From Cladosporium halotolerans (Eukaryota), in NCBI RefSeq assembly GCF_011745625.1, contig NW_027191464.1:434001-498000 (forward strand): a DNA stretch of 64,000 nucleotides, given 5' to 3'. The notes beneath the pieces were generated by a model, which saw only the letters and a list, made by a program, of their open reading frames with translations, did no database searches and was not told where the DNA came from. This document shows, piece by piece, positions 51,377 to 58,792 of this stretch. Both the position numbers and the translations under genes were made by a program. Numbering within the stretch: position 1 is the stretch's first letter; each line of letters starts with the position of its first letter.

Positions 51377-53137
51377 TCAGCTCTCTTTGCTTACCAAAGC
51401 AATCGCACTCGCGTTCAACCCGGGCCACTTCTTGCGTCCCCACGCAAACCAACCAACTCCAGCGCAAAGCAGCAAAAACGCGTAGATCGGCAGCGCATAG
51501 TTCATGTTCGTTCCGTCTACCCCGTAGCTCGTCGGGAAGGGCAAGTAAATCGTGATGTAGATCGTCCAAACCAGTGCGTATATGCTGATCGGCACAGCAA
51601 ATGATTTGGGAAGCCTCCACTCGCCATAGTGTACCCTGGCCGTCGATGTATCCCCGAGCAGACCTGTTAGGCGAGCGTGGAGAAGACATGATATTGCTAT
51701 GATGTACGAAGAGTAAAGGCCTAGCGAGGACAATGACGTGAAAGCAGAGAATGCAGTCGCAGCCGTGGAGCCGATATTGAGAAGCGATAGGAGGGATACG
51801 ATCAGGATTGGAAGCCACAAAGCGCGTACAGGTACTTTGTGCTTAGGGTCGACTTTGGCAAAGTATTTCGGCAAGGCTCCGTCGCGAGCCCAGGCCCAGG
51901 TGATGCGGCCGACTGAGGCGAGGGAGGCGGCTACCACGCAGTAGGTGATTATCAGGAGGCCGAAGACGAGAGCGTTGGCGGCGTGCGTGCCGGCGATTGC
52001 CATGAAGATCGGGATGATGGGATAGCCAGACTCCAGGTAGGGAGTGACGTCTCCCATCTGGAACATGATGACCAGGGCCATGATGAAGGCGAGCGTGCCA
52101 TTTATCAGAATGGTGTATACCATTGCTCGAGGCACGGCGTGTCGGGCTCGACGAACTTCCTCTGACATGTGATTCACGCCGTCGAACCCGATAAAGCCCC
52201 ATGCCGGCACGAGCATACCAATGTTGAAAGCCACGAACTTGCCCCAACCTGAGTAAGAGGTGCTGTCCGTGAAGACGACGTCAGCGGTGTTGCCAGATCC
52301 TAAGCCTGCGAAGACACCGACAAAGATGAAGAATAAAAGTACATGGCATACACCGGAAGCCAGTTCGAGCCAGGGAACGATGCGGAAGGCGTAAGAGTTG
52401 ATGAGCCCTGTAGTAACCAGAATCGCGATCATGATAGGCGCAAGGTGCCAAGTTTGTTGTGCGTCGGCATAGCCTGGCATGTTCTCTGCGATGATGCCTT
52501 GCAAGCTAAATGCCAGGCTGGAGCTGCTGCCGCCGAGAGCAGAGACCCACGCAAACCATGTCACCCAGCCTTGAAACCATGTGATAACTCTCCTTGATTT
52601 CTCCGGAGCCAGCATATCTGTCCAGTGGTATTGGGCACCAGCAATGGGTAGGATGGAGCCGAGCTCTGCCATCGAAAGCGCCTGCGCCAGCGACCCTACG
52701 ACAACCAGCAAACAGCCCCAAACGAGCGCTCGAGAGCCACCGTTGTATAGCGAGGCACCCATGTTCCTGTCATCAAGAGTCAGCGACCACCTTCTGCTCC
52801 GAACGACTGCTACTCACATGGCAATGACCTCCCAGCTTGACATGAACGTAAGTGCAAATGCGAGAAGCTGAACGAAGCTGAAAAGGCGTCTGAGCCGACC
52901 TTGATTAGCAGCAACTTCTTCATCTTCATAAGCGATCTCCGACTCGCGGTAGGGGTTCTTTAAATGTTTCGGGTGCGATTGAAGCTTTCCCACGGTCACG
53001 GCTGCGCCGTCGCTTTTCTCTATCGCGCTGTCAGCGCTCACGTTGGCTGAATCGGTCTCGAGCGGCAGGCTCAGTAGGGGAATAGCGCTCTCAGTTTCAT
53101 TCACAAAAGAAGCATTGAAGTGGTGAGAATTGGGCAT
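51377..53137 (-). CDS. APC-superfamily amino acid/GABA/choline permease
   Basis: Intron 52767-52817, motifs L.NGG, SMAELGS..P.AG.QYHW, GFD...HMSEE and W..ARD..LP, and about 12 hydrophobic segments. The start codon is tentative. Confidence 0.9.
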
Positions 53138-54282
53138 TAAGGAGCCAAAGTTTTGCTCGAGCACTCCAAACGCAACTTATTTGCGGCTGAAGGAACAAGC
53201 GCCGCAGCCGGTAACTGACCGGTCTTCGAGCTGGTAGCGAGCGATAAGCTTGCATGGATCTAAACTGAAGGGAATGAATGCTGCGGGGTAGGCGTGGCGC
53301 AATTCGTTGTTTCAATGGTGCAGACCGGGTGCCGATCTATTGTCCATTACGGTTTGGTTGGCGAAACCATGTGCAAGCCAAAGAGCTAGATGGGGTTTCA
53401 CGACCGCGCCAGGATGGCACATCAGGCATCAGTGGACAAGATTCGCGGGACTTCACTCGACAAAACCTGTGATTGCATCTGCATTATTCACCGTAGGCGT
53501 TCGAGCAAACCCAGTGTGTCGTGCCATTTCTGCATCTTTCTGACTGCAATGACATTGCCAGAGACCTTTCTAGAAGGTAGATTTCCCTTCATAGTCGTTG
53601 TCATCCGTCTCAAAGATTTTTTCGAACACTGTCTCGATCTCTTGTGACGTCGCGGAGGCTTGTGATCATTTCGCAGTGTTGCAATGCAGAGAATGTCATT
53701 GATCTGTAGCTGCCATGTGCCTGACAAAGTCCCGGAAGCACTCACTTCATGCTCTCATCGCTTGTAGGCACGTAGAGGCTAGAGCAGTATTTTTGAGCCT
53801 TAGATCGTTGTTTATGTCCGCTCTTACAGCTCTTTAGGATTTAGTGCCGGTTCCAACACATTGGTGCTCTTGCGATGCCTGTCGATGACATATTTCGTGC
53901 TGCGCAATGCCATGGCATGTGTCACGCAAGCGAGTCGTACGGGGGATCCGAGCCGTGAGAATGGGAGATTATTGGAAGCTGCACAGGTTGCAAGATGTAG
54001 TAGCAAGACCCATCATTGTGACAAGCTTATGGGTTCGCAATGTATCGCATCAAGAGACGGAGGTATTGATCAAAGGTTTAAAGCAAGCCTTACTAGGAGG
54101 TCGCAGAATGGGGAGCGAATGCACTGCTTACAGCTCATGGTGGTCACAGGAGCCGCGAGGCGCTCACGCACCTACAACAATGCCCACAGTCGGGGACATT
54201 GACAGGCGAGCGACAGGATGCGCCGGGGTAACGTAACTCGGTCCCCTGGCGCCTCAGGCCCATAGAAGAGCGCAGACTTACC

Positions 54283-54290
54283 TATATATA
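54283..54290 (+). promoter_or_regulatory. TATA element upstream of the candidate Pol III ncRNA
   Basis: TATATATA about 30 nt upstream of the inferred start site near 54318-54320. Confidence 0.55.
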
Positions 54291-54317
54291 CGCGTGTCGT
54301 TCACTTTGGGTATCAGA

Positions 54318-54526
54318 ACATGAATAGTCGACTTTGGGTTCCGTGTCGAAGTGGGCAACGCGCGGGCTGGGTCTCACGGCCTTCGGCTTAAATTAGTGAT
54401 TGTTCTGCTACACCCCAGAAAGTAAAACCCTTGGCCAAGGTTTTCTTCCCTAACGCCGAATGCGGCGGCCAGGTTCTTTTGCTGGTGAGTTCGAATCCCG
54501 GAGTCTGCTATTCCATTTGTTTTTTT
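54318..54526 (+). ncRNA. Candidate structured RNA polymerase III transcript (~205 nt) of unknown family
   Basis: A-box-like TAGTCGACTTTGG (54325-54337), B box GTTCGAATCC (54489-54498) and T7 run (54520-54526). The 5' segment GAATAGTCGACTTTGGGTTC pairs with the 3' segment GAATCCCGGAGTCTGCTATTC. At least four internal hairpins are visible. Confidence 0.7.
54520..54526 (+). terminator. Oligo-dT Pol III terminator
   Basis: Seven consecutive T directly after the 3' arm of the terminal stem. Confidence 0.6.
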
Positions 54527-54836
54527 GTTAGGGGCAAGTCATGTCACGTGCAGCGGGCTTGCCATGCTTGCCATTTGGGGTTCGTAGCCGTCCTGATTCT
54601 GCACATCCTTCAGTTGGTCAACTCCCGTGAAAGATCGCTACGGGTGGGAAACTGTCATTTGCTGTCGCTCGTTAATTACATGCGTTATGGTGTGTATCTT
54701 ACGATTTTCATGTTGCGAAGCCTGGCTCATATTGCAACCTTGAAGTCCACCACACTCACAATGTCGACCAGTCTGCATTGTTGTACAATTGAGCTTCAGA
54801 ATAAGCCTCGTTCTTTGAAACTCTCTCAATGTCCAT

Positions 54837-55288
54837 CTATTCGTCATCCTTATTCCTCTTTCCAAACGCGTAGGCCAACCCGCCTCCGACGATGTTCGCG
54901 ACACACAAGCCGACGGTGGCGCCTCTAACAAGCCCTCTAGCACCAACCTTGCTGCCAAAGCCCTGCTTTCTCCTCCCAGCGAGGATAAGGTATGCCGCAC
55001 TCCAGGCGGATGTGAGGCCCGCGCTGTCTGTCTTGAAGCCGTTGACGTTTAGGTAGGAAGAGAAGAGGAGGATGGGCGGGAAGAGCATAGGTAGAGTCTG
55101 GAATGGGCGGGCGTGCTGTGCGAAGACGAGGGTTGCCAGGAGGGTCGCGGGTAGAGGGTTCTCTGTTGGACGTGGTTAGCTGGAGACGCTGAAGGTCAAT
55201 GTCAGTCGCACGTACCTCCCCAAGCTTTGGCATATTGCAGAACGCCTTTCTTCGCCTCCTCTTCGGGGGATTTTCCTGGCATTGGCAT
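54837..55288 (-). CDS. Aim19-like small mitochondrial membrane protein
   Basis: Exon 1 MPMPGKSPEEEAKKGVLQYAKAWG, intron 55163-55215, then ENPLPATLLATLV.AQH.RP...DSAGLTSAWS. Confidence 0.75.
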
Positions 55289-57688: not shown

Positions 57689-58792
57689 TTACGCAAGACC
57701 ACCGAGAGCGCTGGTGGCATCAGCGGACGACTCCTCAGCATCAGCGGGAGCGGCCTCATTCGTCTCCTCAGTGGGGTCAACCGGCTCCTTGGGTTCCTTG
57801 GGCTCCTCAGGGACGGCCTGGTCTTTGCTGCTCTCGTCCTCGCCGCCGAGGAGGGATCCAAGCTGGCGCTTGGTGAGGCCGCCGAGAGCGCTGGTGGCGT
57901 TGGCAGCGGAAGCTCCGTCAGTCTCGACAGTGGTGGTGTTGTCCTCGGTAGGGTCGACGGGCTCCTTAGGCTCCTTCGGCTCCTTGGGGATGACATCCTC
58001 TGCCTGGCGCTTCAGCAGGCCGCTGGTGGCGGAGTCATCTGCCGGCGCGGCTTCCGCATCCTTAGCTGGGGTCTCAGCGGGCGCAGTAGCGTTCTTCTTG
58101 TCGCCGCCTCCAAGTAGCGAGGGGACGTTTTCCAGGCCGAGCCCGCGCTTCACAAGACCGCTGCCCGCAGCGGCATCCTCAACAGGCGCGGCGGCATCAG
58201 TCGTAGGAGCGGTCGCGTTCTTGTCTTTGTCGCCACCAAGGAGACCCATCAGGCTGTCCAGCTGCCTCTTCGCAAGAGCGCTGGTCGCGCTGTCCTCCGC
58301 AGGGGCAGTCGCATTCTTCTCGTCCTTGCTACCACCGAGAAGACCCATCAGGCTGTCCAACTGCCTCTTCGCTAGAGCGCTGGTCACGCTATCCTCCGCA
58401 GGCGCAGTGGCATTCTTCTCGTCCTTGCTACCACCAAGAAGACTCATCAAACTGTCAAGCTGCCTCTTCTCAACGGCGTCGGTCGCAGGAGCGGTAGCAT
58501 TCTTCTCGTCCTTGCTGCCACCCAGAAGACTCATCAAGCTGTCCAGCTGTCTCTTCGCGAGGGCCTCTTCTGCAGGAGCAGTCGCGTTCTTCTTGTCCTT
58601 GTCGCCACCCAGAAGGCTTCCGATACCGCCCATGCCGCCCAGAGCACCGATCTGACGCTTGATCGCGCCAGCGCCAGCGCCTTTTGTAACGCTGGTGACT
58701 GTGTCGAGACCGGGCAACTCCTGGCGCGGCGCGACGGGCATAGCGACTGCCAGGCCGGCAGTGGTGACGGCAAGGAATGCGGAGAACTTCAT
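57689..58792 (-). CDS. Secreted Kex2-processed repeat protein (KEP), 367 aa
   Basis: Signal peptide MKFSAFLAVTTAGLAVA, eight KR sites separating repeated units QLDSLM(S/G)LLGG..DEKNATAP, and TATA-like TTATAA at 58971-58976. Confidence 0.88.
   Translation of the reverse strand: MKFSAFLAVTTAGLAVAMPVAPRQELPGLDTVTSVTKGAGAGAIKRQIGALGGMGGIGSLLGGDKDKKNATAPAEEALAKRQLDSLMSLLGGSKDEKNATAPATDAVEKRQLDSLMSLLGGSKDEKNATAPAEDSVTSALAKRQLDSLMGLLGGSKDEKNATAPAEDSATSALAKRQLDSLMGLLGGDKDKNATAPTTDAAAPVEDAAAGSGLVKRGLGLENVPSLLGGGDKKNATAPAETPAKDAEAAPADDSATSGLLKRQAEDVIPKEPKEPKEPVDPTEDNTTTVETDGASAANATSALGGLTKRQLGSLLGGEDESSKDQAVPEEPKEPKEPVDPTEETNEAAPADAEESSADATSALGGLA
58190..58620 (-). repeat. Imperfect tandem coding repeats (~87-120 nt units) inside the KEP gene
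   Basis: Recurrent + strand blocks such as ttcttctcgtccttgctaccacc..gaagac.catca..ctgtc.a.ctgcctcttc. Confidence 0.85.

What the first reader, a model, noticed from the sequence alone, without database searches (positions are those of the whole stretch)
54283..54526. Unannotated Pol III-type structured ncRNA gene: TATA + A box + B box + T7, with a panhandle and multibranch fold
Seen in sequence, in the correct order: TATATATA (54283-90), A-box-like TAGTCGACTTTGG (54325-37, about +8 from a start near 54318), B box GTTCGAATCC (54489-98) and TTTTTTT (54520-26). The two ends pair over about 20 nt with G-U pairs, a small mismatch and a bulge (54322-54341 with 54493-54513), so both promoter boxes lie in the terminal stem. 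Internal helices are CCGTGT/GCGCGG (54341-65), CTGGG/CCCAG (54367-54418, enclosing TCAC/GTGA and GGCCTTCGGCT), AAAACC-TTG/CAA-GGTTTT (54424-44), CGCCG-AATG-CGGCG (54454-67) and CCAG/CTGG (54469-85). Established knowledge: this is a type-2 Pol III promoter layout, and a panhandle with the B box next to the terminator resembles vault and adenovirus VA RNAs. It is not a tRNA, because there is no T-stem around TTCGAAT and no cloverleaf. I found no U6 ACAGAGA, SRP helix-8 or RNase P/MRP P4 motif. Inference: an independently transcribed ~205-nt fungal ncRNA of unknown function. It may be new, or it may belong to a poorly characterised class such as the Aspergillus Afu_ RNAs or Neurospora Pol III pri-milRNAs.
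Basis: partly seen in the sequence, partly recalled or inferred. Interest (0 to 1): 0.9.

Follow-up and report, generated by a model that had tools for sequence, protein, structure and literature searches.

The report
Orphan Pol III-type small RNA gene
A short gene-free stretch in this fungal genome very probably encodes a roughly 200-base folded RNA made by RNA polymerase III; it fits no catalogued RNA family, has at least one sister copy in related fungi, and its job is unknown.

Summary
An A box + B box + T-run arrangement arose in 7 of 1500 simulated windows, and in 0 of 1500 with a TATA box. The 5' and 3' ends form a 16-bp helix (pair probabilities >0.96; 6 of 3450 background pairs as stable).

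Public read sets add three points:
- A cDNA contig from a close relative ends flush at 54322, the first base of the helix and 32 nt past the TATA box.
- The RNA body changes less than its flanks.
- Relatives carry a second locus sharing only two blocks (54336-54361, 54473-54501), followed again by a T-run.

There is no Rfam match even at E 10, no tRNA, no target-site duplication, and only two copies in one relative's contig set.

Verdict: probably a real Pol III small RNA gene of an uncatalogued, lineage-restricted family. Function, strand and polymerase are not shown. Two contigs run past the T7.

The parts
54283..54290 (+). TATATATA, the proposed upstream TATA element. It ends 32 nt before the inferred start at 54322.
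   Evidence: Read. It is the only TATATATA in the 64-kb window. One related haplotype has A>T at 54286.
54322..54526 (+). Proposed primary transcript of about 200-205 nt, from G54322 into the T7 run.
   Evidence: The X18 cDNA contig (54322-54719) ends flush at 54322, and nothing was laid on 54295-54321. X18 is cDNA because one of its contigs skips the AIM19 intron 55165-55217. The body shows 2 differences in 205 nt against 10 in the next 193 nt (Fisher p 0.018). No Rfam hit. Only two 23-codon ATG ORFs overlap it.
54322..54338 (+). 5' strand of the terminal helix (panhandle).
   Evidence: Pairs with 54497-54513: 16 bp and one C x U mismatch, pair probabilities 0.96-1.00, -22.2 kcal/mol, 6 of 3450 background pairs as stable.
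54497..54513 (+). 3' strand of the terminal helix. It overlaps the last bases of the B box and leaves a 3' overhang, CAUUUG plus the U-run.
   Evidence: The sequence was read.
54336..54361 (+). 5' block shared with the second locus in relatives. It contains the A box and lies in a hairpin, stem 54341-46/54360-65.
   Evidence: record 16 of X9 (a 14.6-kb contig): 26 nt with 2 mismatches. The same joint is seen in X17.
54344..54354 (+). A box TGTCGAAGTGG, 10 of 11 to TRGCNNAGTGG (consensus recalled).
   Evidence: It is the only A box (<=1 mismatch) within 30-250 nt upstream of a B box with a T-run in the window.
54454..54467 (+). CGCCG-AAUG-CGGCG hairpin, the only interior helix that is robust in the folding ensemble.
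   Evidence: Mean pair probability 0.81.
54473..54501 (+). 3' block shared with the second locus. It contains the loop GUUCUUUUG and the B box.
   Evidence: record 16 of X9: 29 nt with 1 mismatch, and 99 instead of 111 letters between the two blocks.
54488..54498 (+). B box AGTTCGAATCC, 10 of 11 to GGTTCGANTCC (consensus recalled).
   Evidence: It is one of 3 B-like sites (<=1 mismatch) in the window and the only one followed by a T>=5 run.
54520..54526 (+). T7 run, the proposed Pol III terminator.
   Evidence: One related haplotype has T6. The second locus has a T5 run about 16 nt after its 3' block in two relatives (loose ends). Against: the contigs of X18 and X20 run through it.

Best explanation
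This is a real, independently transcribed small-RNA gene with a type-2 (tRNA-like, internal A box + B box) RNA polymerase III promoter, helped by an upstream TATA box.

**Inferred mechanism**
- TFIIIC binds the B box (54488-54498) and the A box (54344-54354).
- TFIIIB is placed over the TATA box (54283-54290).
- Pol III starts at about G54322 and stops in the T7 run (54520-54526). This gives an RNA of about 200 nt with a U-tail.

**Shown by computation**
- The first 17 and last 17 body nucleotides close into a 16-bp helix. The 5' end is flush and about 10 U-rich nucleotides overhang at the 3' end.
- The helix encloses about 160 nt of short hairpins whose exact fold is unresolved.

**Family**
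- The gene belongs to a small family restricted to this fungal lineage, probably a dothideomycete. Relatives carry at least two loci.
- The two box-bearing blocks are kept between loci, while the centre and the terminal-helix sequence differ.
- This pattern is typical of tRNA-gene-derived Pol III RNAs such as vault RNAs.

**Most likely role (inference only):** a stable RNA that is bound by La at the U-tail, carried by its terminal helix, and serves as the RNA part of a ribonucleoprotein or as a tRNA-like decoy. I do not think it is a guide RNA or a message.
For: - **Motif order and spacing.** One such arrangement in the real window. It arose in 7 of 1500 simulated windows without TATA and in 0 of 1500 with it.
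- **TATA.** The only TATATATA in 64 kb sits 32 nt before the inferred start.
- **Terminal helix.** Pair probabilities >0.96; 6 of 3450 background pairs as stable.
- **Transcript start.** In the cDNA set X18, shown to be cDNA by the spliced AIM19 intron, a contig of mean depth 48.5 ends flush at 54322. The 184-nt contig upstream has depth 3.1, and nothing was laid on 54295-54321.
- **Constraint (tests).**
  - X18: 2 differences in 205 nt of body against 10 in 193 nt downstream (p 0.018).
  - X17 contig 54247-54509: 2 in 192 nt of body against 4 in 71 nt upstream (p 0.047).
  - Against the flanks of X17's more distant haplotype (71 in 689 nt), p is 2.5e-6. Against the closer haplotype (26 in 694 nt), p is 0.063. 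Which haplotype the body contig represents is not certain.
- **Second locus.** X9 and X17 carry a second locus that matches only 54336-54361 and 54473-54501, with 99 instead of 111 nt between them. A T5 run follows at nearly the same distance.
- **No coding alternative.** No ORF longer than 23 codons overlaps it, and there is no Pfam hit for the upstream ORFs.
Against: - No direct evidence exists for Pol III, for the strand, or for a discrete 200-nt species. Contigs carry no strand and no local depth.
- The X18 contig runs on through the T7 to 54719, where it meets the AIM19 3' end. The only piece in the metatranscriptome X20 (54425-54622, depth 5.7) also crosses the T7 and lacks the 5' half. 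Either termination is leaky, or these pieces come from the opposite strand or from DNA, or the transcript is longer than proposed.
- Whole-RNA folding energy is not exceptional: z -1.63.
- In the X9/X18 lineage the upstream spacer is also well kept (3 differences in 184 nt). The contrast in conservation is clear only downstream for that lineage.
- No homologue beyond close relatives could be fetched, so there is no covariation test.
- The A box lies 22 nt from the start, somewhat further than in tRNA genes (recalled).
Confidence: 0.62

Rival explanations
1. A TATA-driven Pol II non-coding transcript of about 400 nt or more starts near 54322 and runs convergently into the 3' end of AIM19. On this reading the A box, B box and T7 are relics or coincidence.
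For: The X18 contig spans 54322-54719 without a break at the T7, and the X20 contig (54425-54622) also crosses it. A TATA box 30-40 nt upstream of a start also fits Pol II (established knowledge).
Against: - The second locus keeps exactly the box-bearing blocks and a T-run at the same distance in two relatives.
- Differences rise from 2 in 205 nt to 10 in 193 nt right after the T-run region.
- A+B+T+TATA arose in 0 of 1500 simulations.
- A T7 run would be an odd feature inside a conserved Pol II RNA.
Confidence: 0.13
2. This is a decayed tRNA gene or a low-copy SINE-like retroposon. It may still bind TFIIIC (an 'extra TFIIIC' or boundary site between the permease promoter and AIM19), and any RNA is a by-product without its own function.
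For: - It has tRNA-type A and B boxes.
- With thresholds lowered to 80%, ARAGORN draws a tRNA-like fold for 54362-54509, with a 7-bp acceptor stem (two G-U pairs) and a 53-nt intron.
- Relatives have at least two loci.
- Low-copy tRNA-related SINEs of 140-493 bp have been reported in Aspergillus fumigatus (PMC5063351, passages seen).
Against: - There is no tRNA at default thresholds and no Rfam tRNA hit at E<=10.
- Only 2 records of X9's contig set were laid on the stretch, the orthologue and one paralogue.
- There is no target-site duplication around 54318-54530, and no A-rich or LINE-like tail.
- The whole 200-nt body, not just the boxes, is kept. It shows 2 differences in 192-205 nt.
- The locus is orthologous, with the same flanks, in four read sets.
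- None of 7 strings from this RNA (GTTCGAATC and six others of 8-10 letters) occurs in the SINE sequences printed in that paper.
Confidence: 0.12
3. It is a strongly diverged member of a known RNA class that Rfam models miss in this lineage, for example a spliceosomal snRNA (a U1-like 5' motif and a Sm-like site are nearby), a 5S-derived RNA, or U3.
For: - AGACTTACCT at 54274-54283 matches 9 of 10 letters of the U1 5' end (motif recalled).
- AUUUGU followed by U-run at 54515-54526 looks like a Sm site. A GGCAAG/CUUGCC hairpin (54532-54563) follows it (read).
- Aspergillus has two U1 genes (PMC2377427, Table 3).
Against: - No Rfam family, including U1, U2, U4, U5, U3, 5S, SRP, RNase P/MRP, vault and Y, matches 54150-54650 on either strand at E<=10.
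- cDNA cover over 54111-54294 has depth 3.1 against 48.5 from 54322. An RNA starting at 54274 is therefore not seen.
- The stretch 54286-54309 carries 3 of the 6 differences of the X17 contig.
- Paralogues of one snRNA would share their whole length, not two blocks.
Confidence: 0.05
4. There is no gene. It is a chance meeting of short motifs in an intergenic spacer, and the cDNA cover comes from an extended AIM19 3' UTR on the minus strand.
For: - The motif criteria were set after the fact, and about 2 A+B+T arrangements per genome are expected by chance (extrapolated).
- The fold z-score is weak.
- Contigs carry no strand.
Against: A second locus with the same two blocks and a T-run cannot be chance. 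Three further points argue against it: the contig end coincides with the first base of a 16-bp helix and with the TATA distance; the body is constrained; and the helix is rare.
Confidence: 0.06

Closest known systems
Vault RNAs (vtRNA; Pol III, internal A and B boxes)
   Same: - Internal A and B boxes sit near the two ends.
- The 5' and 3' ends pair into a panhandle.
- It ends in an oligo-U terminator.
- Paralogues keep the ends and differ in the centre (features of vtRNA recalled; here).
   Different: - It is about 200 nt rather than about 80-150 nt.
- There is no Rfam Vault hit at E<=10.
- Major vault protein is, as far as I recall, absent from ascomycetes. It could not be checked here because no genome is held.
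- The upstream element is a plain TATA box.
Adenovirus VA RNA I and its 'minihelix' terminal stem
   Same: - It is a type-2 Pol III gene.
- The RNA closes with a long terminal helix that has a paired 5' end and a short 3' overhang. In VA RNA this shape is the export signal (recalled).
   Different: - This is a cellular fungal gene at a syntenic chromosomal locus.
- There is no sequence or Rfam similarity.
- In VA RNA the A and B boxes lie close together near the 5' end (recalled). Here they are 144 nt apart.
Y RNAs, including bacterial tRNA-like YrlA
   Same: - A terminal helix is made from both ends, and the RNA has a Pol III U-tail.
- The loops AGUGGG (54351-54356) and UUCGAAU (54490-54496) resemble tRNA D and T loops, as in YrlA (recalled).
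   Different: - There is no Rfam Y_RNA hit.
- No Ro60-type bulged helix was recognised.
- A T stem would have only 3 of 5 pairs (read).
- Whether the organism has a Ro60/TROVE protein could not be tested.
Orphan Pol III transcripts of budding yeast (RNA170, ZOD1)
   Same: They are lineage-restricted Pol III transcription units of unknown function with tRNA-type boxes. They were found by occupancy rather than by homology (recalled, no paper read).
   Different: No sequence relation is expected or was tested. The present RNA has a strong terminal helix and a paralogue.
Aspergillus fumigatus Afu_ ncRNAs (Jochl et al. 2008, PMC2377427)
   Same: They are unclassified, intergenic, 110-320-nt RNAs of a filamentous ascomycete. 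Four are conserved within the genus (section 16).
   Different: - They come from a different class of fungi.
- The paper's main text does not contain the terms 'polymerase III', 'Pol III', 'A box' or 'B box'.
- afu-182 lies next to insA (PMC13439689), not next to a permease or AIM19.
- Their sequences could not be compared because the supplement was not readable.

Membership tests
Type-2 Pol III transcription unit (kind, not family) | Internal A box and B box in that order, matching the consensus | tested here: met
   A box 54344-54354 and B box 54488-54498 each have 1 mismatch. It is the only such pair with a T-run in the window, and it arose in 7 of 1500 simulated windows. The consensus strings are recalled.
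Type-2 Pol III transcription unit (kind, not family) | Run of T>=5 shortly after the RNA body | tested here: met
   T7 lies at 54520-54526. A related haplotype has T6, and the paralogue has T5 in two relatives.
Type-2 Pol III transcription unit (kind, not family) | A transcript with the predicted ends | tested here: inconclusive
   The 5' end fits: the cDNA contig ends flush at 54322. The 3' end does not: the contigs of X18 and X20 pass the T7. Neither strand nor local depth can be read from contigs.
Type-2 Pol III transcription unit (kind, not family) | Occupancy by Pol III, TFIIIC or TFIIIB | not testable with these tools
   No ChIP data were available.
tRNA | Cloverleaf recognised by a tRNA finder or the Rfam tRNA model | tested here: not met
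   ARAGORN finds 0 genes in the window and 0 in 54201-54700 at default settings, with or without introns of up to 200 nt. Folds appear only at the 70-80% threshold. There is no Rfam hit at E<=10.
tRNA-derived SINE | Many dispersed copies | tested here: not met
   The window has one copy. In X9's contig set, 2 records were laid: the orthologue and one paralogue.
tRNA-derived SINE | Target-site duplication and an A-rich or LINE-derived tail | tested here: not met
   No direct repeat brackets 54318-54530. The element ends in a T-run.
Vault RNA | Match to the Rfam Vault model; size of about 80-150 nt | tested here: not met
   No hit at E<=10. The length is about 200 nt.
Vault RNA | Organism encodes major vault protein | not testable with these tools
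   No genome is held for this window.
Y RNA | Match to the Rfam Y_RNA model and a Ro60-binding helix | tested here: not met
   No hit at E<=10. The presence of Ro60 could not be tested.
SRP RNA, RNase P/MRP RNA, U1/U2/U4/U5/U6 snRNA, U3, 5S rRNA | Match to the family's covariance model | tested here: not met
   There are 0 matches from 4227 Rfam models, at gathering score on the whole window and at E<=10 on 54150-54650, both strands.
Aspergillus Afu_ ncRNAs | Sequence or syntenic identity with a listed Afu_ locus | tested here: inconclusive
   The organism is not an Aspergillus by its best protein matches. The afu-182 neighbourhood differs. The Afu_ sequences were not readable.
Neurospora Pol III pri-milRNAs | Small RNAs of about 19-25 nt processed from the transcript | not tested
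   No small-RNA data were laid, and no paper on them was read.

The most novel reading that the evidence does not exclude
This is the first member seen of an undescribed family of abundant, structured Pol III RNAs in dothideomycete-type filamentous fungi. It would be a fungal counterpart of vault/Y/VA-type RNAs. Its conserved D-loop-like and T-loop-like blocks would form a tRNA-like elbow on top of a 16-bp export helix. The RNA would then act as a tRNA mimic or RNP scaffold, for instance titrating a tRNA-binding or La/exportin-type factor, rather than only carrying promoter boxes.
Probability: 0.25. Interest if true: 0.72.

Novelty: new variant of a known kind. Interest (0 to 1): 0.52.

Why it matters
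The known set of Pol III products in fungi is short: tRNAs, 5S, U6, SRP RNA, RNase P RNA, and in budding yeast snR52 and a few orphans (recalled).

A conserved, structured 200-nt Pol III RNA with paralogues in a filamentous ascomycete would add a new RNA family. It would also give a small, easily deleted gene with which to ask what lineage-specific Pol III RNAs do in fungi.

The promoter (TATA + A + B + T7) might also be worth testing for guide-RNA expression in these fungi.

If it turns out to be only a TFIIIC-bound relic, it is an ordinary curiosity.

Tried and rejected
- **Rfam.** Searched at gathering score and at E<=10. Nothing was found.
- **tRNA finders.** Only sub-threshold folds were drawn.
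- **Own genome.** None is held, so I could not count copies or look for MVP or Ro60.
- **Homologues in public collections.**
  - Metagenome scan with the two box cores and a variable gap: 3 hits, all coding-looking chance matches.
  - Prokaryote genome scan: 15 hits, all bacterial chance matches.
  - Both caps are now used, so I could not fetch the syntenic AIM19 interval of other fungi, and no covariation test was possible.
- **Earlier findings of this scan.** Nothing bears on this locus.
- **Literature.**
  - String searches for pieces of the RNA gave nothing relevant.
  - Term searches for fungal Pol III ncRNAs gave no description of such an RNA. The listings only were seen.
- **AfuSINE paper.** 7 strings from this RNA are absent from its printed sequences.
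- **Jochl et al. supplement.** It was unreadable, so the Afu_ sequences were not compared.
- **U1 reading.** Considered because of the AGACTTACCT motif and rejected (see rivals).
- **U2-, U5-, U3-, 5S- and RNase P-like stretches.** I noticed these from memory of those RNAs. They are short, were not tested beyond Rfam, and carry no weight.
- **X20.** It holds a single 198-nt piece (54425-54622) and nothing else of the 1.6 kb. This says nothing firm about expression or habitat.
- **First Monte-Carlo script.** It timed out and was rerun in a faster form.

Full report
**Setting**

The window is fungal nuclear DNA. The candidate lies in a spacer of about 1.7 kb.
- On one side is an amino-acid permease gene on the minus strand (ORF 51377-52762, Pfam AA_permease_2, E 2e-62). 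Its promoter faces the candidate.
- On the other side is the 3' end of an AIM19 gene, also on the minus strand (54840-55088, Pfam Aim19, E 3e-5, below the curated cut-off). A DnaJ/DUF1977 gene follows it.
- A neighbouring glutaminase gene has its best named matches (61-64% identity) in Teratosphaeriaceae, Hortaea and related black fungi. Aspergillus and Penicillium match at 49-52%. The organism is therefore probably a dothideomycete, not an Aspergillus. This rests on one gene.
- No whole genome is held for the window.

I tested the arrangement against chance with criteria fixed after seeing the locus: a B box with <=1 mismatch, T>=5 within 70 nt, and an A box with <=1 mismatch 30-250 nt upstream.
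- The real window has exactly one such arrangement, this one.
- Among 1500 third-order-Markov simulated windows, 200 (13%) had B+T, 7 (0.47%) had A+B+T, and none also had TATAWA 20-90 nt before the A box.
- Scaled to a whole genome, a couple of A+B+T arrangements are still expected. Motifs alone do not prove a gene.

The panhandle is solid. G54322-G54338 pairs with C54497-C54513: 16 pairs and one mismatch, every pair with probability 0.96-1.00, and a duplex energy of -22.2 kcal/mol. Only 6 of 3450 equally spaced segment pairs from the window do as well.

The interior is not solid.
- The fold of the whole RNA is not unusual: z -1.63, with 10 of 200 shuffles as good.
- Only the CGCCG/CGGCG hairpin is stable in the ensemble.

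**What known thing is it?**

None that the tools can recognise.
- Rfam 15 (4227 models) gives no match in the whole window at gathering score. It gives none in 54150-54650 on either strand even at E<=10. This covers tRNA, 5S, SRP, RNase P/MRP, U1-U6, U3, vault and Y RNA.
- ARAGORN finds no tRNA at default thresholds, with or without long introns. At 80% thresholds it draws a poor tRNA-like fold for 54362-54509. I take this as a hint of tRNA-gene ancestry at most.
- No ORF above 23 codons overlaps the RNA.
- No direct repeat brackets the element, and it has no A-rich tail.

**Evidence from public read sets**

Twenty of the 23 listed runs hold part of a 1-kb stretch around the locus. I laid four of them on 53600-55200.

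(a) *Transcript start.* X18 is cDNA.
- Its depth ranges from 3 to about 1700 across the stretch.
- One of its contigs joins 55164 to 55218, skipping a 53-nt GTACGT...AG intron of AIM19.
- A 399-nt contig of mean depth 48.5 covers 54322-54719 and ends flush at 54322. That is the first base of the terminal helix and lies 32 nt after the TATA box.
- Nothing was laid on 54295-54321. The contig upstream (54111-54294) has depth 3.1.

(b) *Constraint.* All differences of two contigs are listed; tests are.
- X18 has 2 differences in 54322-54526 and 10 in 54527-54719 (Fisher p 0.018).
- X17's contig 54247-54509 has 4 differences in the 71 nt before 54318 and 2 in the 192 nt after it (p 0.047).
- X17 holds two haplotypes or species whose flanks differ from the window by about 4% and about 10%. 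Against the more distant flanks, the body's 2 in 192 gives p 2.5e-6. Against the closer flanks, it gives p 0.063. I cannot tell which haplotype the body contig represents.
- In the X9/X18 lineage the upstream spacer is also quiet (3 differences in 184 nt).

(c) *A second locus.* In X9, a relative's DNA in which one 114-kb contig holds the whole orthologous stretch, a different 14.6-kb contig matches only two blocks.
- It matches 54336-54361 (2 mismatches) and 54473-54501 (1 mismatch), with 99 rather than 111 letters between.
- X17 shows the same joint.
- Beyond the blocks the letters differ from this locus. A T5 run follows about 16 nt after the 3' block in both relatives, where this locus has its T7 (T6 in one haplotype).
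- Two loci that share the box-bearing blocks and a terminator at the same distance, and differ in the centre and in the terminal-helix letters, cannot be coincidence. This is the pattern of a small Pol III gene family.
- Whether the paralogue's ends also pair could not be settled from the 30 letters shown on each side.

**Evidence against**
- The X18 contig does not stop at the T7. It continues to 54719, where it overlaps the abundant AIM19 3'-end contig.
- The only piece in the metatranscriptome X20 (54425-54622, depth 5.7) also crosses the T7 and lacks the 5' half.
- Contigs carry neither strand nor local depth. These pieces may be read-through, a minus-strand extension of the AIM19 3' UTR, or DNA. 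They also fit a longer Pol II transcript from the same TATA box.

**How it most likely works**

Shown:
- the motif layout
- the terminal helix
- a cDNA end at 54322
- lower divergence of the body
- a paralogue in relatives.

Inferred:
- TFIIIC binds the B and A boxes, and TFIIIB sits on the TATA box.
- Pol III starts at G54322 and terminates in the T-run, giving an RNA of about 200 nt.
- The flush 5' end and the roughly 10-nt U-rich 3' overhang on a 16-bp helix resemble the terminal 'minihelix' of VA RNA and the closed ends of vault and Y RNAs (recalled). La would bind the U-tail.
- The kept loops AGUGGG and UUCGAAU may be only promoter boxes, or may also form a tRNA-like elbow.
- I put 0.62 on a genuine Pol III small-RNA gene of an uncatalogued family. 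The rivals and their odds are in their own section.

**Comparison with what is known**
- It works like a vault- or VA-type Pol III gene but fails the membership tests for vault, Y, tRNA and SINE that could be run.
- It is not one of the Aspergillus Afu_ RNAs as far as could be checked. The organism is of a different class, and afu-182 sits beside insA (PMC13439689, passages).
- Jochl et al. (PMC2377427; outline, section 16 and a term search seen) do not use the terms 'polymerase III', 'Pol III', 'A box' or 'B box' in the main text. Their sequences were in a supplement that could not be read.
- 7 strings from this RNA are absent from the SINE sequences printed in PMC5063351.
- I found no description of such an RNA in searches by sequence string or by terms. 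These searches cover only the held open-access library.

**Verdict**

This is probably a real, new small-RNA gene family of a known general kind. The function is unknown, and the evidence is indirect and limited to close relatives.

Noticed in passing
window 54274-54283: AGACTTACCT lies directly upstream of and overlapping the TATA box. It matches 9 of 10 letters of the U1 snRNA 5' end (motif recalled). ACTTACCT occurs once in the window. cDNA cover there is only depth 3.1, and Rfam finds no U1.
   Followed up: partly
window 54557-54574: There is an exact 9-nt tandem duplication, GCTTGCCAT x2, just downstream of the T7. One related haplotype in X17 lacks 9 letters at 54557, which is one unit.
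   Followed up: partly
This looks like a small local duplication around the start site. Its meaning is unknown.
   Followed up: no
window 54526-54599: At lowered threshold only, ARAGORN draws a tRNA-Gly(GCC)-like fold right after the T7. It has a B-box-like GGTTCGTAGCC at 54579-54589. This is probably noise, but X20's contig covers it.
   Followed up: no
window 55165-55217 (minus strand): A 53-nt intron of the AIM19 gene (GTACGT...AG) is spliced out in a cDNA contig of X18. The main AIM19 3' end appears to lie near 54691-54719, where the contig depth drops from about 940 to 48.
   Followed up: yes
window 57689-58792 (minus strand): A 367-aa ORF has a signal-peptide-like start and many repeats of the type ...KRQLDSLMSLLGGSKDEKNATAPA..., each preceded by KR. 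It looks like a Kex2-processed repeat protein, a possible peptide precursor.
   Followed up: no
window 53900-54900, run list: Six runs from different coded organisms and from dust, surface and soil samples hold nearly the same share (0.46-0.48) of the 1-kb stretch's sampled words. This suggests one widespread related lineage. Only X9 of these was laid.
   Followed up: partly
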